A stretch of DNA of 64,000 nucleotides from Nitrospirota bacterium (GTDB taxonomy: Bacteria > Nitrospirota > Thermodesulfovibrionia > Thermodesulfovibrionales > Dissulfurispiraceae). Position numbers and translations under genes: made by a program. The stretch lies in contig CAWBMP010000002.1 of the NCBI GenBank assembly GCA_963790025.1, positions 672,001 to 736,000 of the forward strand. Direction: 5' to 3'. The notes below the pieces were generated by a model. That model made no database searches. It was given only the letters and a program-made list of their open reading frames with translations, and had not been told where the DNA came from. Below, piece after piece: positions 1-8,094 of this stretch; the first letter of the stretch is position 1, and each line of letters begins with the position of its first letter.

Positions 1-332
1 TTCGATATTATTATGCTCTTGTACCGGTCTTGCCAGAAATGCCCAATATGCCTGTACTTTCCCTTGTAATACTGAGCATAAGAAAGATTGACGCCCTTCA
101 TGATCTCCGCCAGACTGCCTCCATTTACTACTGTCTCAACCACCAAATGCACGTGATTAGTCATAAGCACATAATGATAAAGCTTGTAGCCATACTTTTC
201 TTTATACTTAAGCAATATCTCGATATATCTCTCATAATCCCTTTCATATTGAAATATGTTCTGTCGATTGTTTCCTCTCGTCAGAACATGATATATATGC
301 TCACTCGGAGCTATACGCGCTGTTCTCGGCAT
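1..332 (-). CDS. Y1/HUH (IS200/IS605-like, RAYT-type) transposase, copy 1, cut off by window start
   Basis: 1-332 is identical by eye to 1228-1559 (offset 1227). ATG at 332. HUH motif in LMTNHVHLVV. Confidence 0.9.
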   Translation of the reverse strand, partial: MPRTARIAPSEHIYHVLTRGNNRQNIFQYERDYERYIEILLKYKEKYGYKLYHYVLMTNHVHLVVETVVNGGSLAEIMKGVNLSYAQYYKGKYRHIGHFWQDRYKSIIIS

Positions 333-468
333 TCTAAACTGTCACCGCCACCCTGTTTCTCTCAAAAAAATAGAACCGTCCCATTTAATCTTCTTCATCG
401 TGTAAATTGCCTTAAATTTATTCCGCAAATGTACCCGTCCTATTTAATCTTCCATTTAATCTTGCCGT

Positions 469-822
469 TTATCTTGTTCTCTGGAATTCTCTTCTAAACT
501 CCCAAACAAATGCTATTACTAAAAAGATCGACATAATTATATTAAGTGGATACCCGAACCATAAAAACATGCAAAGGATGCCATATGAATGAAACAGAAC
601 AAGGTGATATTTCTTTAATTTATTTTTCTTTTTATGCTCAAACAATTTAATAGCAATAACATAGCCGACCATACTGCCTGAAATAATTATTGATCTCGAC
701 GCATATTTCCCACCCATAAAAGTAGCAATAAGGTTTGCTAAAAAAATAATGATCGATAATGCAAGTCCCCAGTTTATATATTTAGAATAAAATTGATTAA
801 TGTTTTTATTTTCCATATACAT
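469..822 (-). CDS. Small multi-pass membrane protein, immunity-protein-like
   Basis: 117-aa AT-rich ORF with about 4 hydrophobic segments, flanked by motif copies. The immunity role is inferred from context. Confidence 0.6.
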   Translation of the reverse strand: MYMENKNINQFYSKYINWGLALSIIIFLANLIATFMGGKYASRSIIISGSMVGYVIAIKLFEHKKKNKLKKYHLVLFHSYGILCMFLWFGYPLNIIMSIFLVIAFVWEFRREFQRTR

Positions 823-846
823 AACCTATCTTTTTCTATAACTGAA

Positions 847-1612
847 TAAATGGGACGGTTCTATTTTTCCTCATTTCTCTCCTTCTTGGGTCGCCCTTTC
901 CTCCGTATCATTTCTTCAAGCGCAAATCTCTTCTGCAGCATCGCCACGAAAGCCTCGTTCCCATACACTGCTTTCCGCTCCATCTCGCCTTTCATAGCTT
1001 CTTTTTCGGTAAGCATTCCCTTCACAAATTCCCTGTATTTTATCCTCCGCTCCGCCTCGCTCTCCGACAATTACTCATATATTACGTGCTCATCTACTAA
1101 CAAGTCCTCTCTCCCATGGCCATATGCCCGGTAGCTGCTCCACCGATACTCCTTCGGATCATCTACCATTTGCGCCCTTACCGGATTAAGCTCCACATAG
1201 CTTCCACAGGCAAGCAGATAATTATCTTTCGATATTATTATGCTCTTGTACCGGTCTTGCCAGAAATGCCCAATATGCCTGTACTTTCCCTTGTAATACT
1301 GAGCATAAGAAAGATTGACGCCCTTCATGATCTCCGCCAGACTGCCTCCATTTACTACTGTCTCAACCACCAAATGCACGTGATTAGTCATAAGCACATA
1401 ATGATAAAGCTTGTAGCCATACTTTTCTTTATACTTAAGCAATATCTCGATATATCTCTCATAATCCCTTTCATATTGAAATATGTTCTGTCGATTGTTT
1501 CCTCTCGTCAGAACATGATATATATGCTCACTCGGAGCTATACGCGCTGTTCTCGGCATTCTAAACTGTCACCGCCACCCTGTTTCTCTCAAAAAATAGA
1601 ACCGTCCCATTA
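847..1612 (-). mobile_element. ~766-bp element with terminal inverted repeats carrying a Y1/HUH transposase
   Basis: AATGGGACGGTTCTATTTTT (849-868) is the exact reverse complement of AAAAATAGAACCGTCCCATT (1592-1611). The same end sequence occurs at ~366-387 and ~2096-2116. Confidence 0.85.
861..1559 (-). pseudogene. Y1/HUH RAYT-type transposase, copy 2, split by an in-frame TAA at 1071-1073
   Basis: ORFs 1071..1559 and 861..1070 are in one frame, separated only by TAA. Motifs: MPRTAR, YHVLTRGNNRQNIF, NHVHL, HFWQDRYKS, YVELNPVRA, YRWSSY and C-terminal GRPKK. Confidence 0.85.
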
Positions 1613-1619
1613 ATCTTCT

Positions 1620-1958
1620 TCACCCGCCAATTACCGCGCCGCCTATCGTTCCCAATGGCCCCGCGAGTGAACCAATTGCCGTTCCAACTTCAAGTCCGAT
1701 GCTTGACCCGAATGTTGTTCCAACATATTTACCTGCCGCTCCATCTAGAGTTCCGCCAATTATATTTCCAATTAGTTCACCTGTTCCGGCTGAATTGAAA
1801 ATGTTTTTTCCTGTATCCTTGGCAATGCCCCATCCAAAACCGGCATTTGAATTAGCATAGTTTGAAATAGAATTCATAGCACTATCAATAGTCGGCACAG
1901 TCGGCGTTGGTGGTGGCGGTGGTGGCGTGTATGTACCTCCCCCTCCGCCGCCGTTATT
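1620..1958 (-). pseudogene. Start-less Gly/Pro-rich linker plus glycine-zipper fragment, resembling a polymorphic-toxin/bacteriocin C-terminal region
   Basis: The frame is open upstream of the called GTG: NNGGGGGGTYTPPPPPPTPTVPTIDSAM...GTAIGSLAGPLGTIGGAVIGG. Motif copies lie at both ends. Confidence 0.5.
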
Positions 1959-1965
1959 TCCATTT

Positions 1966-2117
1966 AATCCCTTTCATCTTTAAATATGTTCTGTCAATTG
2001 TTTCCTCTCGTCAGAACGTGATATATATGCTCACTCGGAGCTATACGCGCTGTTCTCGGCATTCTAAACTGTCACCACCACCCTGTTTCTCTCAAAAAAT
2101 AGAACCGTCCCATTTAA
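1966..2117 (-). pseudogene. 5' fragment of the same Y1 transposase unit (copy 3) with its inverted-repeat end
   Basis: ATG at 2062. Matches copies 1 and 2 with a few substitutions, including CGA>TGA at codon 23. Homology ends at GGGATTA, where a TCCATTTAATC motif sits. Confidence 0.85.
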
Positions 2118-2227
2118 CGCATGACGGAGCTGTCAAAATCGCGTTCCAATCTGAATCCATTTTGGGACAGCCTGCCGTCCCATTTAATTCTTATTTCGTA
2201 AATGTACCCGTCCCATTTTATTTTTCT

Positions 2228-2560
2228 CTACTTGTATCTTGTGATATCGGGCTCTTTCTTAATAAGATCGATTAGTAGTAATATTACAACTATCCCATAG
2301 ATAATAATTAGAGATATGAATGAGCTTGAAGCTGGTTGCCTCGTCAGTATTGCATAGACGACGACTAAGGCAATTACAATCTTTATTACGGTAATTTTTA
2401 AAATGCCGTATTTTATTTGCAGCTTATAATATCTATTCTCTATTAACGGCTTATAAGACTTTGTAAGAATAAGCAGCACCGCATCAAGGAGCACAAATAG
2501 AACAAGGCTACTCACTTCTATGATCCTCAGCAAGTGATCAAATTTTACTAATGTTTCCAT
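2228..2560 (-). CDS. Small membrane protein, immunity-protein-like
   Basis: 110-aa ORF with 3 hydrophobic segments, starting a few bp after the stop of the upstream fragment. Confidence 0.6.
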   Translation of the reverse strand: METLVKFDHLLRIIEVSSLVLFVLLDAVLLILTKSYKPLIENRYYKLQIKYGILKITVIKIVIALVVVYAILTRQPASSSFISLIIIYGIVVILLLIDLIKKEPDITRYK

Positions 2561-2566
2561 ATTCGT

Positions 2567-2815
2567 TTACCTTCTATACCACCACTTTTTCAGAGTGTCG
2601 ATTCTCCTTCCAATCCGCTCTGCCATCCCCTGATATTCTACTGACATCGCACCAACGACCTCGCGAGTTTTATTAATTTTGTCATATCCAATATCTACTG
2701 CTGTTGGAATATTTAACGCCTCGCCAATTCGGTACCCAAGATAATTTTCCATTGCGTGAGACCCACTAATTTTAGCAGCCTCCCATACGACAACTCCAAA
2801 TCTGCCTATTCTTCG
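2567..2815 (-). pseudogene. Start-less C-terminal protein fragment, putative toxin tip (...GRFGVVVWEAAKISG...KKWWYRR*)
   Basis: 3' part of ORF 2567..2896. The 5' part of that ORF overlaps a better ORF in another frame (2806..2928). Confidence 0.4.
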
Positions 2816-2928
2816 GAGAAGTTTCTGGAAACGTGAAAATGAACTAAGAAGCCTCCTATGAATATCGGAGCAACAATTAAAAATAACCGGAGCCAACTTA
2901 TTATTTTTCCTTTTTTTCTACGGTCCAT
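2806..2928 (-). CDS. 40-aa single-TM peptide, possibly a truncated immunity gene (MDRRKKGKIISWLRLFLIVAPIFIGGFLVHFHVSRNFSEE)
   Basis: Manual translation. ATG lies 14 bp after the stop of the 2943..3176 fragment. Confidence 0.35.
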   Translation of the reverse strand: MDRRKKGKIISWLRLFLIVAPIFIGGFLVHFHVSRNFSEE

Positions 2929-2942
2929 AAATTTCTTTTAAG

Positions 2943-3176
2943 CTATTTAGAAAAATAGTCATATTCCTTATCTAAACATTTATAACAACTATGAGCAAAA
3001 TCAAAAGCAATTCCAATTTGAGAAGCTCTTCCTCCCCAATTTAAAAGTCCTCTAACTATTGAGGACTGCATTGGTTTTATCAAGAAAGGCGTCCCAATTT
3101 TTGATGGCGTAGTTGCAGCGTGACGCCAAGCGACATAATTAAATGTTCCCGCCGCTCCTTTGCCAGCTACTTTAAA
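2943..3176 (-). pseudogene. Start-less 77-codon fragment, putative toxin tip (FKVAGKGAAGTFNYVAWRHAA...SSIVRGLLNWGGRASQIGIAFDFAHSCYKCLDKEYDYFSK*)
   Basis: Manual translation gives an open frame with no initiator at its 5' end. The style resembles Rhs-type C-termini (inference). Confidence 0.4.
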
Positions 3177-3192
3177 TCATTTTTTCTTCAGT

Positions 3193-3221
3193 AAGTTAAA
3201 GCACGATTGGCCGCCTGTCAA
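3193..3221 (-). promoter_or_regulatory. Candidate sigma70 promoter pointing into the cassette array
   Basis: TTGACA (3221-3216), 17-bp spacer, TAACTT (3198-3193) on the minus strand. Confidence 0.45.
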
Positions 3222-3261
3222 TTTTCGTTGCTTTGTAAAAAAAAGTTGCAGGGGTGCTTAC

Positions 3262-4641
3262 CTATTTCCCTATACAAAACTCGCTGAATATTTTATTAAG
3301 AATATCATCTGTGGTAACAGCGCCGATTATAGTTCCCAAATGGTCCAGTGCATCCCGCAGGTACATGGCTATAATCTCAAGTGGAATGTCGTTTTCAAAT
3401 GACTTTACTGCCTCGGAAAGGGCTTGAGCTGCACGGTCGAGTGAATGCTTGTGTCTGATATTGGTAATAAGAGGAATTTCCGCATCCATAGGAACTCCTG
3501 AAGAAGTACACCTGCAATAGATCATGTCTTTCAGCTCCTCAATTCCCTCTCCGGTCAATGCCGATGCCATAACGAAATGCCTCAACCCCTCAGGAATAGC
3601 GAAGTCAGGAGACCGGATATCACACTTATTAATAAGAACGATTGTTTTCTTATGAGCAACAGCTGCAATGAGTTGTTCATCGGCCTTGTCAAGGGGCATG
3701 CTGCTGTCCAGCACAGCGATAACGATATCGGCGCCCTCAATGGCCTTCAGGCTCCTTTTTATACCCTCCGTTTCGGCAAGATTATGGGTCTCCCGAATGC
3801 CGGCCGTATCCATAATACGGAGCGGCAGACCCTTGATATTCAGAGTGTCTTCTATGACATCCCTGGTAGTGCCGGGCATTTCAGTAACGATTGCCCGGTC
3901 CTTTTCTAGAAGTGTGTTCATCAGCGATGATTTTCCAACATTGGGTTTTCCTACAATAGCGGTTGCGACCCCATCTCTGAAAAATCTGCCGTCTTCGTAT
4001 CCGGCTGAAAGGTCTGCCAGCTCCGTGCCGATAGCTCTTAATGTATCAATGACTTCAACCTTCCTGACTGTTTCAATTTCATCCTCAGGAAAATCGATCT
4101 GTGCCTCCACGTATGCGCACAATGTCGTTACACGGTCCTGCAGCGCAGATATTCTCTGTGAGAGCTTCCCTTCAAGCTGGGCCAGGGCGAAACGTTCAGC
4201 CTGTTCCGATCGGGCCTTTATGACATCAATAACCGCTTCTGCCTGAGAGAGGTCTATTCTGCCGTTCAAGAAAGCCCTTTTGGTGAATTCTCCGGGCTCA
4301 GCTATTCTGGCGCCTTCACTGAGGAGAAGCTGGAGCACTGTTTTAAGAGGAAGCATGCCGCCGTGGCAATTGATTTCAACCACATCCTCCCTTGTGTATG
4401 TCCTGGGTGCCCGCATAACTGTAACCAGCACTTCGTCGACTTTCACCCCCCGGGCAGGATCGACAATAAATCCATATGTTATGGTATGTGATGCCGCATC
4501 CCTCAGTCTTTTAGTCGGCGTTGTCAAAAAGATACGGCCGGCTATATCAACCGCACCTTTTCCACTAAGTCGGATAATGCCTATCCCACCCTCGCCTATT
4601 GGAGTGGCTATTGCCGCAATTGTATCGTCAGGATAGATCAT
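3262..4641 (-). CDS. mnmE: tRNA modification GTPase MnmE (TrmE)
   Basis: DTIAAIATP, GEFTKRAFLNGRIDL, GKPNVGKSS, C-terminal FCIGK. Confidence 0.98.
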   Translation of the reverse strand: MIYPDDTIAAIATPIGEGGIGIIRLSGKGAVDIAGRIFLTTPTKRLRDAASHTITYGFIVDPARGVKVDEVLVTVMRAPRTYTREDVVEINCHGGMLPLKTVLQLLLSEGARIAEPGEFTKRAFLNGRIDLSQAEAVIDVIKARSEQAERFALAQLEGKLSQRISALQDRVTTLCAYVEAQIDFPEDEIETVRKVEVIDTLRAIGTELADLSAGYEDGRFFRDGVATAIVGKPNVGKSSLMNTLLEKDRAIVTEMPGTTRDVIEDTLNIKGLPLRIMDTAGIRETHNLAETEGIKRSLKAIEGADIVIAVLDSSMPLDKADEQLIAAVAHKKTIVLINKCDIRSPDFAIPEGLRHFVMASALTGEGIEELKDMIYCRCTSSGVPMDAEIPLITNIRHKHSLDRAAQALSEAVKSFENDIPLEIIAMYLRDALDHLGTIIGAVTTDDILNKIFSEFCIGK

Positions 4642-4662: not shown

Positions 4663-5601
4663 TTACCCGGCTTTTCGCGTCTCCACATAATACGCCGCAG
4701 CCAGCGCCGCTGTGCACCCGTCAGCTGCCGCAACCACAATCTGGTTGGCAAACTTGCGCCTTAAGTCCCCGGCAGCGAAGATGCCCGGCACGCTGGTCTC
4801 ACACTTCTCGCTTGTAATTACATAACCCTGTTCGTCTATGTGGATCGCGGGAGGGATCAATTGATTATTTGGAGAATTGCCGATAAAAATAAAGACCCCG
4901 TCCGTCGGTATTTCTCCCTTTTCACCGGTCGCAGTATTTTCGAAAGAGACAGCGTTGACAGTTCTCCCGTTTCCCTTTATTTCCGTAATTATCGTATCCC
5001 AGATTACTTCGATTCCCGGCTCGGCCATAAGACGACTTTGGAGTATGTTGGTTGCCCGCAAAGTATTTTTCCGATGAACAAGGTATACTTTTTTCACCAG
5101 CCTTGATAGATAAAGCGCTTCCTCGACAGCGGTATCTCCCCCGCCGATGACAACTACGGTCTTATCTCTGAAGAAGAACCCGTCGCAAGTAGCACAGTAT
5201 GAAACACCTGTTCCGAAGTATTCCGCTTCGCCGGGGATGCCGAGCTTTCGCAAGGTAGCGCCCAATGCAAAAATAAGGGCCACAGTGTGGAACACATCAC
5301 CATTGCCAAGCATGACCGAGTGAAAATCGGGGCCTGAATTGACTGCCGCAACCTCCTGCTGGACAAGGTTCAGGCCAAAGGACTGGGCATGATGGACCAG
5401 TTTTTCTGCCAGATCAAAACCGGTTATGCCCTCCAGGCCGGGGTAGTTCTCCACCTCTTTTGATATTGCAATCTGGCCTCCGGGCAGCCCTTTCTCGAAA
5501 AGGACCGTTTTCAGCGCGGCCCTTTGGCAATAAAGCCCTGCAGTGAGCCCTGCCGGCCCCCCTCCAATAATGATTACTTCATATGTATCGTTAACAGCCA
5601 T
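4663..5601 (-). CDS. trxB: Thioredoxin-disulfide reductase
   Basis: GGGPAGLTAG, CATC active site, GGGDTAVEEA. Confidence 0.95.
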   Translation of the reverse strand: MAVNDTYEVIIIGGGPAGLTAGLYCQRAALKTVLFEKGLPGGQIAISKEVENYPGLEGITGFDLAEKLVHHAQSFGLNLVQQEVAAVNSGPDFHSVMLGNGDVFHTVALIFALGATLRKLGIPGEAEYFGTGVSYCATCDGFFFRDKTVVVIGGGDTAVEEALYLSRLVKKVYLVHRKNTLRATNILQSRLMAEPGIEVIWDTIITEIKGNGRTVNAVSFENTATGEKGEIPTDGVFIFIGNSPNNQLIPPAIHIDEQGYVITSEKCETSVPGIFAAGDLRRKFANQIVVAAADGCTAALAAAYYVETRKAG

Positions 5602-5686
5602 AATGTTTCTCCACCTGATGATATTAAGCTTATCATTGGGTCAATATTCAGTCAATCATCTACTAATAATATACGGTGTCGAGCAG

Positions 5687-5830
5687 TCAGGCCACAGTGC
5701 TTCAGCTAAATTTCGCAAGGCGTCCAGCCTTGCTCAAAGGCGCGGCAGCCTGTTCAGCCATCCATGGCGTCTCAGGCTGCCGATGCCCGCCTCAGCACTA
5801 TGTCCTGCCTGCTCTTGGAGAGAATTTATC
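5687..5830. repeat. ~140-bp dispersed palindromic repeat (REP/MITE-like), copy A
   Basis: Inverted copy at 33194-33332. The 38-bp core GGCAGCCTGTTCAGCCATCCATGGCGTCTCAGGCTGCC is identical in both. Confidence 0.85.
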
Positions 5831-5845
5831 AATAATAAAGAAAAA

Positions 5846-5965
5846 AGGGTTTCGTACGAAGTCCATAGGCAAGGCGCAAATCCTGACGAATGAGGCCGAG
5901 CACTCAACACGTTACTCATAAGCGATTTGAGTGCTCGGCAGTATATGGGCTTTTTACGAAACCCT
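5846..5965. repeat. ~120-bp MITE-like element with imperfect terminal inverted repeats and an internal hairpin
   Basis: AGGGTTTCGTACGAAGTCCATA ... TATGGGCTTTTTACGAAACCCT. The internal hairpin 5895-5939 recurs inverted at 7756-7797. Confidence 0.7.
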
Positions 5966-7502
5966 ACGCGGTTTTTTTTGCGAGCTTCCGGTTGGTATAG
6001 AACTGCTGTCCAATACTCAGCACATTATTCACAAGCCAGTACAGCACAAGGCCCGAGGGGAAGCTCAGAAACATGAACGTAAAGACGACAGGCATAATCA
6101 TCATCATTTTCTGCTGCATCGGGTCCATGGAGGATGGCGTCATCTTCTGCTGTATAACCATGGTGATTCCCATAACTATCGGCATGACATATGTGGGGTC
6201 CTTCAGGGAAAGATCGTGGATCCAGAACGCGAAGGGCGCCCCCCTCAGCTCAATCGAGATAAGAAGCACCTTGTACAAAGCAAAAAAGACCGGGATCTGA
6301 AGCAGCATAGGCAGACAGCCGCCCATCGGGTTCACCTTGTGCTTTTTGTAAAGCTCCATAATCTCCCGCTGCATTCTCTGCGGGTCACTTTTATATTTCT
6401 CCCTGACCTCAGCCATTCTGGGTTGTATATCCTGCAGCTTCTTCATGGATTGCTGCCCTTTATTTACAAGTGGAATAAACGGGATCCTCACAAGAGTGGT
6501 AAGAATGATAATGGCAATCCCGTAGTTGTGCGAAATCTTATAGAACAATTTTAAAACCCAGAACAACGGACGGGCAATGATAGAGAAAAAGCCGAAATCA
6601 ATCACATACTCGAGCCCTACATGATATTGCTGAAGCCGGTCGTTTTCTTTAGGACCGTTATATATCTTATATGTATTTACCCCGCTTTTGAATTGAGCGG
6701 CAACCAGAGCGTCGGCATTTTTGTCCCAGACCTTTACTTCATCGACTGCCTCTCCGGGAATAAGGGAAGAAAAGAAATACTTATCTTCCTGGGCAATCCA
6801 TTTGACGCCCTCTTTAAAGATCTTAGCCTCTTTCAATTTGGGCACTGAAAATTCAAGCCTGTCGGCATCTTTCAATACCACGGGTCCGAAGTGCACTTTA
6901 CTGTCTTTATCATAAATGCCGAAATCCTTTCCCAGGGTTATCCAGTATGTCGGAAGACCGGTTATTTCATCTTTCAGGTCAATAGCGTAGTCATCGTAAT
7001 GAAAAGTATAGGTACGGCGGATCGAAGTGCTCCCATCTGAATAGTCAAAGGCAAGTGAGGCAGTATTTATCCTGGGAGTGAGTTTGACATTGCTTCCGCG
7101 AACCAGAAAAGGGGCATGAGCGAACTGGAATCCATCATCCGCCCCAATCGAAAACGGGGGTAAGGCCTCATCCCGCATTAATACTATCGGGTTCCCTTTA
7201 TTATCTTTGTACTGCTTGAGCAGTATGCTTTTTATGGTGCCTCCCATGGAGCTGAAGGTGGCCGTATACAGATCATTCTCCACCACCACTTCTCTTTCTC
7301 CTTCGGACGCATTTATCTTTGGGATTGACGCAGGAGCGTTAGCAGAAGCCTGTTTCATTTCCTCCTTAGTGGGTTCTTTAGAGGATTCCCTGGCAATATT
7401 TCCGCTCGTTACCGGAGGTGCTGGGGGTTTCACAAAAAAATACTGGTATACGAGGAGTATGGCAATAGAAATAGTAATTGCAAGCAACGTCCTTTTTTCC
7501 AT
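5964..7502 (-). CDS. yidC: Membrane protein insertase YidC
   Basis: NYGIAIIILT, KVNPMGGCLPMLLQIPVFFALY, GLVLYW. Confidence 0.98.
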   Translation of the reverse strand: MEKRTLLAITISIAILLVYQYFFVKPPAPPVTSGNIARESSKEPTKEEMKQASANAPASIPKINASEGEREVVVENDLYTATFSSMGGTIKSILLKQYKDNKGNPIVLMRDEALPPFSIGADDGFQFAHAPFLVRGSNVKLTPRINTASLAFDYSDGSTSIRRTYTFHYDDYAIDLKDEITGLPTYWITLGKDFGIYDKDSKVHFGPVVLKDADRLEFSVPKLKEAKIFKEGVKWIAQEDKYFFSSLIPGEAVDEVKVWDKNADALVAAQFKSGVNTYKIYNGPKENDRLQQYHVGLEYVIDFGFFSIIARPLFWVLKLFYKISHNYGIAIIILTTLVRIPFIPLVNKGQQSMKKLQDIQPRMAEVREKYKSDPQRMQREIMELYKKHKVNPMGGCLPMLLQIPVFFALYKVLLISIELRGAPFAFWIHDLSLKDPTYVMPIVMGITMVIQQKMTPSSMDPMQQKMMMIMPVVFTFMFLSFPSGLVLYWLVNNVLSIGQQFYTNRKLAKKTA

Positions 7503-7520
7503 TATAAAAATCCTTTACAT

Positions 7521-7730
7521 TTATTTTACCGGGTCATATCCGCCCGGATGAAATGGATGGCACTTTAAAATTCTTTTAATGGTAAGATAGCTGCCTTTAA
7601 ACGCGCCATACTCTTCTAAGGCCTCGATGGAATACTCTGAACATGACGGCGTAAATCTGCAACTGGAAGGCAATACAGGTGAAATCAAATACCTGTATAA
7701 TTTCACCAGGACAATTATAAGCGTCTTCAC
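7521..7730 (-). CDS. yidD: Membrane protein insertion efficiency factor YidD
   Basis: [33 protein letters not shown]. Likely GTG start at 7730. Confidence 0.95.
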
Positions 7731-7755
7731 TGCCCAAAGCCCCCTATCACACCCA

Positions 7756-7797
7756 CTGAGCACTCAAATCGCCATAAGCAGCGTGTTGAGTGCTCGG
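7756..7797. repeat. Hairpin repeat between rpmH and yidD
   Basis: GAGCACTCAA...TTGAGTGCTC, an inverted near-copy of 5895-5939. Confidence 0.75.
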
Positions 7798-7801
7798 CTG
7801 G

Positions 7802-7942
7802 TCAGCCTGCCAAACGTTTCCTGCCCTTCGCCCTTCTGTTCTTCAGCACCTTTCTGCCGCCGGTAGTGCTAATACGAGTACGAAAGCCGTGGGTCTTTTT
7901 CCTTCTGCTTTTATGCGGATTATATGTTGTATATGTTCCCAT
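7802..7942 (-). CDS. rpmH: 50S ribosomal protein L34 (missed by ORF track)
   Basis: Manual translation: [54 protein letters not shown] upstream. Confidence 0.96.
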
Positions 7943-8094
7943 TTTAACTGCCCTCCGCTAGAAATATCGAACACAAATTATAAATTCTTCAACAACATAA
8001 TGTCAACAACAAAGACGGGTTGGTAGTGGTACAGTTTGTTTTTGCTCCGGATCAAATAGTCTTTGGCAAAAACAAACTGACCCACTGCCAACGG

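What the first reader, a model, noticed from the sequence alone, without database searches (positions are those of the whole stretch)
1..3221. Candidate HUH-transposase-driven gene-cassette array of toxin tips and immunity-like genes downstream of mnmE
Seen: the 3.2 kb after mnmE is AT-rich and entirely minus-strand. It alternates start-less protein C-termini (2943-3176, 2567-2815, 1620-1958) with small membrane ORFs, two of which begin a few bp after such a stop (2806-2928, 2228-2560; 469-822 is a third). Three copies of one Y1/HUH transposase unit are interspersed, and most junctions between 376 and 2220 carry a CCGTCCCATTT / TCCATTTAATC motif that also forms the transposase's own ends. Known: orphan toxin-tip/immunity pairs are typical of polymorphic-toxin (Rhs/CDI) loci, mnmE is a common island insertion site, and Y1 HUH enzymes cut and rejoin ssDNA at short motifs. 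Inference: this is an integron-like acquired-immunity array in which a RAYT-like HUH nuclease, not a tyrosine integrase, captures or shuffles the cassettes.
Basis: partly seen in the sequence, partly recalled or inferred. Interest (0 to 1): 0.85.

Follow-up and report, generated by a model that had tools for sequence, protein, structure and literature searches.

The report
Tyrosine-transposase-stitched toxin-immunity leftover array
Next to a housekeeping gene this bacterium carries a row of cut-off toxin ends and likely antidote genes joined at the end-repeats of a little-studied jumping gene, and the same layout turns up in distant bacteria, hinting that this enzyme family helps build antidote collections.

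Summary
Real, and larger than one locus. A 3.77-kb insert fills the mnmE-surA gap; 0 of 13 relatives carry any part of it. Four of six cargo ORFs match Rhs toxin C-termini or the membrane gene right behind them in other genomes; the genome has no Rhs core and no integron integrase. The repeat is not a direct att site but the inverted end (TIR) of a TIRYT (Y1 HUH subclass 2.1), a named but untested family. There are two full copies, both with an internal stop, plus a 150-bp stub. The same grammar (immunity stop, TIR, truncated tip, immunity) occurs at Rhs loci of the same order, at all 3 Rhs loci of a deltaproteobacterial MAG and in a Pseudomonas aeruginosa CDI orphan array, where one toxin is cut at the TIR end. 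TIR outer ends carry short tandem duplications at one register (34 of 156; shuffled 1). Against a dedicated integron: two junctions here lack the TIR, 17 of 23 Rhs loci lack one, the IS control was not significant, and no cassette gain or reordering was shown. The scan noted a TIRYT before on other DNA, but not this link.

The parts
3262..4641 (-). mnmE (trmE), upstream neighbour; not part of the insert
   Evidence: Pfam MnmE_helical, TrmE_N, MMR_HSR1; followed directly by surA-like gene in relatives
2943..3176 (-). Start-less Rhs toxin C-terminal tip 1 (77 aa); no TIR at its 5' end, only an AAAATG hexamer
   Evidence: 47-48% identical over 76-77 aa to the end of an ORF with an Rhs core in G386
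2806..2928 (-). 40-aa ORF with one hydrophobic stretch in the immunity position; probably a truncated immunity gene (inferred)
   Evidence: position and hydropathy; no alignment to the G386 immunity gene at E<=1, no hit
2567..2806 (-). Start-less Rhs toxin C-terminal tip 2 (about 79 aa)
   Evidence: 37% and 34% identical to the last 70-80 aa of two full-length Rhs proteins (1846 and 1884 aa) of G010
2228..2560 (-). 110-aa three-helix membrane protein, cognate immunity-type gene of tip 2
   Evidence: family of 55 representatives; homologues follow both G010 Rhs genes directly (38%, 33%)
2096..2220 (-). Cluster of TIR variants and stubs 8 nt after the immunity stop (variant 2200-2219, small hairpin 2160-2186, full TIR 2096-2116)
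   Evidence: bridged by a 146-bp contig of run X1
1965..2116 (-). 5' stub of the TIRtron (TIR plus first 35 codons), 97% identical to the full units
1620..1958 (-). Gly/Pro-rich coding fragment, open at both ends, fused to the stub at an AAATGG junction; origin unknown
   Evidence: no homologue; both junctions bridged by a 414-bp contig with no differences
1593..1613 (-). Left TIR of full unit 2
861..1559 (-). TIRYT (Y1 HUH subclass 2.1) gene, unit 2, interrupted by an in-frame TAA at 1071-1073; H60, H62, Y121, N125 lie before the stop
847..868 (+). Right (inverted) TIR of unit 2; holds the gene's natural stop
469..822 (-). 115-118-aa membrane protein, Rhs immunity-type gene, starting about 25 nt outside the right TIR, behind a possible 15-codon toxin tail
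   Evidence: 29% identical (E 1e-9) to the gene directly after an Rhs-core ORF in G421/G433; tail read
430..461 (-). TIR variant with a 12-nt tandem duplication at its outer end, just after the immunity stop
366..397 (-). Left TIR of full unit 1 with the 11-nt flank shared with unit 2
1..332 (-). TIRYT gene, unit 1 (continues left of the window to -366, same internal stop; right TIR near -380; insert ends before the surA-like stop at -511)
   Evidence: right junction seen as a loose end in run X1

Best explanation
The insert is an orphan Rhs tip/immunity array whose junctions were largely made by a TIRYT element (TIRtron). Shown: the parts, their homologies and the recurring layout. Inferred steps: (1) the Y1 HUH enzyme nicks single-stranded DNA at the outer end of its TIR, just after AAATG(G), and rejoins it, leaving short stutters; (2) elements, internally deleted mini-elements and solo TIRs settle right behind immunity stop codons, outer end facing the stop; (3) the far end is then joined to a site inside another toxin gene, either further down the same locus (adjacent deletion) or on incoming DNA (one-ended transfer, or recombination between two element copies), which removes the toxin's front and keeps its immunity gene; (4) repeated rounds give immunity-TIR-tip-immunity rows that are kept because orphan immunity genes protect. 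The element is mobile and not dedicated to this job: it also sits beside toxin-antitoxin and defence genes. The local array is probably frozen now, both copies being interrupted.
For: Cargo homologies. In G010 the homologous immunity gene runs into three tandem TIRs and an intact 77%-identical TIRYT. In 200 genomes of the order 6 of 69 listed TIRYT genes in Rhs-bearing genomes lie within 6 kb of an Rhs core (0.69 expected, Poisson p 8e-5) against 0 of 71 ParE genes (Fisher 0.013). In 23 Rhs loci not picked for a transposase, 10 TIR hits fall in 91 kb downstream of the core, all on the rhs strand, against 2 in 180 kb outside. All 3 Rhs loci of G511 have a TIRYT 0.9-3.7 kb downstream on the same strand; 2 of 31 close metagenome loci too; also a Pseudoalteromonas Rhs-immunity row. 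P. aeruginosa NZ_CP116719.1: CDI orphan array with three 800-bp TIRtrons and four 190-bp mini-elements at module borders; the nuclease tip's 72% match to a full-length CdiA starts 2 nt after the TIR's T run. Outer-end tandem duplications: 34 of 156 TIRs, peak at register +1/+2, shuffled mean 1.05, max 3 (first set 20 of 110, inner side 2 of 110, random sites 29 of 1911). HUH fold and catalytic residues. Orphan cdiI genes protect P. aeruginosa (10.64898/2026.09.30.755834, passages).
Against: Two junctions of this array have no TIR. 17 of 23 Rhs loci have none, among them multi-orphan rows L202, L216, L218. Against a DDE-transposase control the enrichment is not significant (6 of 69 vs 1 of 35, p 0.42). 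The TIR pattern was partly learned from L184 and L203 (without L203: 6 hits, 5 of 22 loci, p 0.02). Genomes are related and lists were cut at 150 rows. Only one breakpoint was mapped against an intact parent at high identity. No intact enzyme of this TIR type is in G000. No cleavage, circle or strain series was observed.
Confidence: 0.47

Rival explanations
1. Dedicated integron-like system: TIRs are reusable recombination sites and the TIRYT excises and inserts TIR-bounded cassettes as single-strand circles, building immunity and toxin-antitoxin arrays for the host.
For: 10:0 strand polarity of solo TIRs at Rhs loci, several rows with a TIR at successive junctions and no transposase in cis (L203, L214, L219); fixed stutter register; a 1,794-bp circular P. 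aeruginosa record made of two CDI cassettes that opens at a TIR outer end; 20 of 70 exact-TIR loci have a toxin-antitoxin or defence family among the nearest genes scanned (no matched control).
Against: Ends are inverted, as in a transposon; no flank duplication around cargo (2 of 102 vs 1 of 102 control); close relatives sit in many unrelated neighbourhoods; no array promoter above chance (8 found, 10.9 expected); the circular record may be an assembly loop; TIR-less junctions and arrays exist.
Confidence: 0.22
2. Passenger model: the array is the remnant of an ordinary Rhs locus built by toxin-tip displacement through homologous/illegitimate recombination, whose rhs gene was lost; TIRtrons landed later in AT-rich neutral DNA, and junctions at their ends come from host recombination between copies.
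For: Displacement is the published model for orphan rows (PMC6336857, PMC3150448, passages); TIR-free arrays are the majority; DDE control not distinguishable; two units here share a stop and 11-nt flank, which fits a host-made duplication; TIR outer flanks are A-rich.
Against: Strand polarity and position right behind immunity stops; 3 of 3 loci in G511; breakpoint at the TIR end in P. aeruginosa; ParE control 0 of 71; pieces from at least three unrelated Rhs types at a site that is empty in 6 of 6 congeners.
Confidence: 0.27
3. Assembly artefact: the repeats are a misassembly of one element.
For: The two units are identical over about 700 bp; 396-842 is not covered by any contig of the runs laid.
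Against: The units differ at several positions near one end; contigs of run X1 bridge 1582-1995 and 2085-2230 without differences and show the unit-1 right junction (X1 may be the source sample, so this is a second assembly, not a second strain); the same layout occurs in other genomes.
Confidence: 0.04

Closest known systems
TIRYT / TIRtron (Di Nocera 2013, PMC3733652, passages) = TnpA-Y1 subclass 2.1 (Quentin 2018, PMC6006769, abstract and sections 11, 15 part 1, 31) = RAYT group 1 (Bertels 2017, PMC5581495, passages)
   Same: NHVH, WQ, YxxxNP and WSS motifs, about 232 aa, terminal inverted repeats with a GGGAC core, no REPs, solo and clustered TIRs elsewhere in the genome.
   Different: In the passages seen these papers give the family no cargo, target or function and no cleavage register. 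Here TIRs mark junctions of toxin-tip/immunity modules and carry outer-end stutters. The TIR has TGGGACGG rather than the GGGGWSAS consensus.
Orphan Rhs-CT/immunity and cdiA-CT/cdiI arrays (Poole 2011 PMC3150448; Cuthbert 2022 PMC9086364; De Gregorio 2019 PMC6336857; passages)
   Same: Start-less tips followed by small immunity genes, one strand, low G+C.
   Different: No parent rhs in the genome; tips are cut far inside the C-terminal domain and keep no Rhs core for recombination; junctions carry TIRs. The papers explain arrays by displacement and mention IS only as disrupting elements.
Polyimmunity loci next to XerC/D recombinases (Zhang 2012, PMC3482391, passages) and Bacteroidales acquired interbacterial defence arrays (recalled)
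   Same: Parent-free row of immunity genes with an adjacent DNA-rearranging enzyme; variable between relatives.
   Different: The enzyme is an HUH nuclease, not a tyrosine recombinase; sites are inverted element ends.
Integrons (recalled)
   Same: One-strand row of small accessory genes separated by a repeated site; single-strand chemistry is plausible.
   Different: No IntI over cut-off, no attC-like pair found in the insert by a script that also missed attC-like hairpins seen by eye elsewhere, cargo is gene fragments, no promoter shown.
E. coli TnpA-REP (PDB 4ER8) and IS200/IS605 TnpA
   Same: Fold and HUH/Y active site (profile E 8e-7; Foldseek E 5e-8 on a pLDDT-83 model of an intact relative).
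   Different: 15-21% identity; no GTAG REP hairpins or subterminal hairpins; extra C-terminal 70 aa; below both NCBIfam cut-offs.

Membership tests
TIRYT / TnpA-Y1 subclass 2.1 | HUH and Y motifs NHVH, W[EQ], Y-x-x-x-NP, and SS motif after the core | tested here: met
   H60, H62, Y121, N125, S142 invariant in 17 of 17 rows; motifs as in Table 1 of PMC6006769
TIRYT / TnpA-Y1 subclass 2.1 | Gene flanked by terminal inverted repeats, not REPs | tested here: met
   22 of 22 complementary ends; both TIRs in 19 of 27 full-length close relatives with flanks
TIRYT / TnpA-Y1 subclass 2.1 | About 238 aa with C-terminal extension | tested here: met
   231 codons when read through the internal stop; intact relatives 230-232 aa. 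The local copies are interrupted.
TIRYT / TnpA-Y1 subclass 2.1 | Assignment by the authors' own subclass profile or tree | not tested
   their HMMs were not available; no tree built
REP-type RAYT (TnpA-REP groups 2, 3) | Flanking GTAG/GGAG REP hairpins, abundant in the genome | tested here: not met
   ends are non-palindromic TIRs; 9 exact 19-mer copies in G000; 68 bits against cut-off 80 of NF047646
Orphan Rhs-CT/immunity module | Start-less fragment homologous to the C-terminus of a full Rhs, followed by its partner gene | tested here: met
   tips 2943 and 2567, genes 2228 and 469; not met for 1620-1958
Orphan Rhs-CT/immunity module | Lies downstream of a full rhs gene and keeps part of the Rhs core | tested here: not met
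   no TIGR03696 match in G000, 98.8% complete; no core peptide
Orphan Rhs-CT/immunity module | Toxic activity of the tip and neutralisation by the partner | not testable with these tools
   no Pfam/NCBIfam family; Atlas gave leads only
Integron | IntI tyrosine recombinase | tested here: not met
   0 of 11 matches over the TIGR02249 cut-off, none near the insert
Integron | attC hairpins between cassettes | tested here: inconclusive
   none found in the insert, but the script was too strict: it found none in any locus
Integron | Cassette excision, insertion and reordering at the sites | not testable with these tools
   one genome per species; no joints in the contigs laid
trmE/mnmE-targeting genomic island | Integrase and duplicated 3' end of mnmE | tested here: not met
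   no integrase ORF in the insert; no repeat of the mnmE end among the repeats listed or in the junction text

The most novel reading that the evidence does not exclude
TIRYTs, a Y1 HUH class found in about 15% of species and so far without a function, are a widespread single-strand gene-capture system: the enzyme cuts at the outer end of its TIR and adds TIR-bounded pieces behind the last immunity gene, so that Rhs and CDI immunity arrays (and many toxin-antitoxin and defence rows) grow by an HUH-driven, integron-like route that needs neither homology nor a tyrosine recombinase.
Probability: 0.27. Interest if true: 0.9.

Novelty: new variant of a known kind. Interest (0 to 1): 0.72.

Why it matters
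How bacteria collect orphan immunity genes is an open question, and such genes are shown to protect against rival strains. The second-largest class of Y1 HUH nucleases has no known substrate, cut site or job. This finding ties the two together and hands over a testable package: an intact natural enzyme (L142:8561-9256), a 21-nt site, a predicted cut register from the stutters, and a cultured species in which the same architecture can be compared across many public genomes. If the enzyme joins a short site to new single-stranded DNA, it is also a candidate DNA-writing tool.

Tried and rejected
Homologue searches for tip 2567 and fragment 1620 among longer proteins gave nothing (weak by the tool's own note); tip 2567 was found later through its partner gene. 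Gene 469 had only itself in the protein search and unnamed Atlas hits under 0.9. Fragment 1620: no match in 200 genomes or in fetched loci. CRISPR-like duplication of the flank around cargo: not supported (2 of 102 vs 1 of 102). Stutters in other TIR families were few (1 of 11, 2 of 22, 3 of 33; shuffled means under 0.3). attC script found 0 everywhere and is uninformative. Promoter scan at chance level; no Rfam family. DDE-IS control did not separate from TIRYT at 6 kb; the 3-kb cut (5 of 69 vs 0 of 106, p 0.009) was chosen afterwards. No RNA holder listed; 396-842 and 2788-3400 not covered by the contigs laid, no joints listed. Single-sequence fold was poor (pLDDT 42); single-sequence PDB search empty. 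The planned replication in another class returned only 4 genomes. Skermanella and Iodobacter TIRYTs sit beside toxin-antitoxin genes, not Rhs; G516's five TIRYTs are not on its Rhs contig. Two scan look-ups by words and one by relatives were empty.
Full report
1. What is there. The window is G000:C2:672001-736000; earlier scan notes call the organism a Nitrospirota bacterium (not tested here). Between the stop of mnmE (3262) and the stop of a convergent surA-like gene (-511, left of the window) lies a 3,772-bp insert of 40.5% G+C in a 47.4% genome. In 13 relatives fetched (6 of the same genus) none of the insert's proteins is found in 10-12 kb around mnmE; 11 of 13 have a gap of only 64-268 bp there, two have 1.0 and 1.5 kb of other genes. 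Reading on the minus strand from mnmE: 80 bp; tip 2943-3176; a 40-aa ORF 2806-2928; tip 2567-2806; membrane gene 2228-2560; a cluster of repeat variants 2096-2220; a 150-bp transposase stub; fragment 1620-1958; full unit 2 (841-1620); membrane gene 469-822; repeat variants 430-461; full unit 1 (395 to -385); 125 bp; surA-like.

2. The element. The gene is Y1_Tnp with H60-H62, Y121, N125 invariant in 17 of 17 aligned rows; a model of an intact relative (pLDDT 83) matches TnpA-REP 4ER8 first, then ISDra2 and IS608 TnpA (profile search). Its ends are 21-22-nt inverted repeats. Motifs, length and ends fit subclass 2.1 of Quentin 2018 (PMC6006769; abstract and sections 11, 15 part 1, 31), the TIRYT of Di Nocera 2013 (PMC3733652, passages); 'TIRYT' occurs in only these two works of the library. 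Both full copies share an in-frame TAA at codon 163 and an 11-nt left flank, and differ at a few sites near the right end: a recent duplication of an already interrupted element. No intact gene of this TIR type is in G000; other TIRYT types with other TIRs are. A second site, C4:39134-40290, has a 5' stub and a 3' stub of the same element around a RelE/ParE-type toxin-antitoxin pair. Close relatives are mobile: 19 of 27 full-length copies with flanks have both TIRs, in many different neighbourhoods.

3. The cargo. Gene 2228 heads a family of 55 representatives at E<=0.001. A profile found it in 3 of 400 other genomes of the phylum; in G010 two homologues (38%, 33%) directly follow full-length Rhs proteins of 1846 and 1884 aa whose last 70-80 residues match tip 2567 (37%, 34%); the homologues in the other two genomes have no Rhs neighbour in what was printed. 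Tip 2943 is 47-48% identical to the end of an Rhs-core ORF in G386, 1 of 200 genomes. Gene 469 matches 4 of 200 genomes; in G421 and G433 (one locus) it follows an Rhs-core ORF and is followed by a TIR of another type. The 40-aa ORF and fragment 1620 have no homologue. G000 has no Rhs core and no integron integrase over cut-off. Toxicity and immunity are inferred from position; no family names them.

4. Is it assembled correctly? One public run holds 46% of the words. Its contigs bridge 1582-1995 and 2085-2230 with no differences and show the right junction of unit 1; 396-842 is uncovered. The run may be the source sample.

5. The link between TIRYT and toxin arrays. (a) In G010 the immunity homologue's last codons are the TIR itself, followed by two more TIRs and an intact 232-aa TIRYT, 77% identical to ours. 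(b) In 200 genomes of the order, from lists cut at 150 rows (G000 rows dropped), 6 of 69 TIRYT genes in Rhs-bearing genomes lie within 6 kb of an Rhs core, 0.69 expected; ParE 0 of 71; rve-type IS 1 of 35, not significantly different (p 0.42). (c) Of 23 Rhs loci fetched without regard to transposases, 6 have TIRs downstream of the core: 10 hits in 91 kb, all on the rhs strand, against 2 in 180 kb outside and 5 in 255 kb of mnmE control loci; the pattern was partly learned on L184 and L203, and without L203 it is 6 hits (p 0.02-0.03). They stand at immunity-to-orphan borders. 17 of 23 loci have none. (d) All 3 Rhs loci of G511 have a TIRYT 0.9-3.7 kb downstream, same strand; G516's one Rhs locus has none on its contig. 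(e) The best plasmid-collection match (4 records) is a P. aeruginosa record with CdiA genes, orphan tips (glutamine deamidase with Imm35, non-specific endonuclease and others), three 99%-identical 800-bp TIRtrons and four 190-bp TIR-to-TIR mini-elements at module borders. The endonuclease tip's 72% match to a full-length Ralstonia CdiA begins 2 nt after the T run of the right TIR, while the left flank is another module: not a simple insertion into one gene. A 1,794-bp circular record of another strain consists of two CDI cassettes and opens at a TIR outer end; it may be an assembly loop. A Pseudoalteromonas row reads SpvB/TcaC-type protein, hypothetical, Imm26, two hypotheticals, TIRYT. (f) The link is not exclusive: of 70 GTDB loci with the exact 19-mer, 20 have a toxin-antitoxin or defence family among the nearest genes (119 of 349 called genes scanned, picked by eye; class labels partly recalled; no control), and none showed an Rhs family in that scan.

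6. A footprint of the enzyme. Perfect 6-19-nt tandem duplications end in the first bases of the TIR, mostly after AAATG or AAATGG, in 20 of 110 and, with more loci, 34 of 156 distinct copies; flank-shuffled copies give about 1, the inner side 2 of 110, random sites 29 of 1911. The insert has such a stutter at 447-461 and two AAATGG junctions without the rest of the TIR (2163, 1966). I read this as nicking and rejoining at the outer end (inference). A test for flank duplication around cargo was negative.

7. Mechanism. Most likely (0.47): the TIRtron settles behind immunity genes and its ends are joined into other toxin genes by adjacent deletion or one-ended transfer, trimming toxins and lining up immunity genes; selection for cross-immunity keeps the rows (orphan cdiI protection: 10.64898/2026.09.30.755834, passages). 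Rivals: passenger elements in an array made by ordinary displacement (0.27); dedicated integron-like capture (0.22); misassembly (0.04). Shown: anatomy, homologies, co-occurrence, one mapped breakpoint, stutter register. Inferred: every enzymatic step, and function of the cargo.

8. Novelty. Ten library searches found no paper linking this transposase class or its TIRs to Rhs/CDI arrays. Term look-ups gave no 'transposase' in PMC3150448, PMC4725963, PMC6336857, 10.64898/2026.07.13.738213 and 10.1101/2025.05.08.652813, and no 'transpos' in 10.64898/2026.09.30.755834; PMC9846239, PMC9086364, PMC3482391, PMC5581495 and 10.1101/2024.07.17.603846 (passages) name other elements or treat the topics apart. 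Allen and Hauser 2019 and Allen 2020 on P. aeruginosa CDI were not held; I have an unverified recollection that the 2019 review remarks on repeats in these loci, so the P. aeruginosa part may be partly in print. No supplements were read; they may bear on this. The scan noted a TIRYT with hairpin repeats in another genome (e1-868645). Verdict: known element, known cargo, apparently undescribed and widespread coupling: new variant of a known kind, interest 0.72.

Noticed in passing
L203:7422 and 6052, L214:2794, L219:3516, 4254, 7245, L215:3337, 3748, 5800, L184:10594: A conserved leader of about 30 codons opens many orphan Rhs modules in four genomes of the order, often within 45 nt after a TIR, fused to different internal points of Rhs; absent from G000. 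It may be a start-providing adaptor or a small repeat element.
   Followed up: partly
L075, L087, L092, L119, L124 (also L063, L064, L065, L076, L088, L098): In about 5 to 11 of 70 exact-TIR loci the TIR is followed within 30 nt by an attC-like start (xxCTAAC/GATAAC), in five with a hairpin by eye; L076 has an integron-integrase fragment on the other side. TIRs may meet integron arrays.
   Followed up: partly
G000:C4:39134-40290 (L061, L062): 5' and 3' stubs of the same TIRtron enclose a CopG/ParE-type toxin-antitoxin pair; a second pair follows.
   Followed up: partly
G000:C2:336901-337671, C5:499015-499419, C3:262052-263641: Another TIRYT type with palindromic ends: one intact 223-aa gene, one 3' stub, and two such ends around a 450-aa foreign gene.
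   Followed up: partly
L243 (NZ_CP137494.1) and L240 (NZ_CP137521.1): Small circular P. aeruginosa 'plasmid' records (1.8 and 2.6 kb) that hold only CDI orphan pieces and mini-TIRtrons; excised circles or assembly loops.
   Followed up: partly
L047 and L052, after rplQ: In two genomes a solo TIR marks the junction between the end of the ribosomal alpha operon and foreign low-G+C genes, in L047 a row of secreted-effector-like repeats.
   Followed up: no
L046/L096 and L117: Solo TIR directly behind a type IV pilin gene, leading into Uma2 or PIN genes, in two genomes.
   Followed up: no
L141:12045-16944: Behind a G010 Rhs-immunity pair lies a primase-like gene with two tyrosine recombinase-like genes and then another Rhs tip with immunity gene: a second kind of element at an Rhs junction (labels by eye).
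   Followed up: no
window -500 to -440 (G000:C2:671497-671555): Long hairpin after the surA-like stop, plus a degenerate TIR-like GGGGACGG at about -415.
   Followed up: no
window 4663-7957: trxB-like, yidC, yidD, rnpA and rpmH-like genes: the insert lies in the conserved block near the likely replication origin (names by eye).
   Followed up: no
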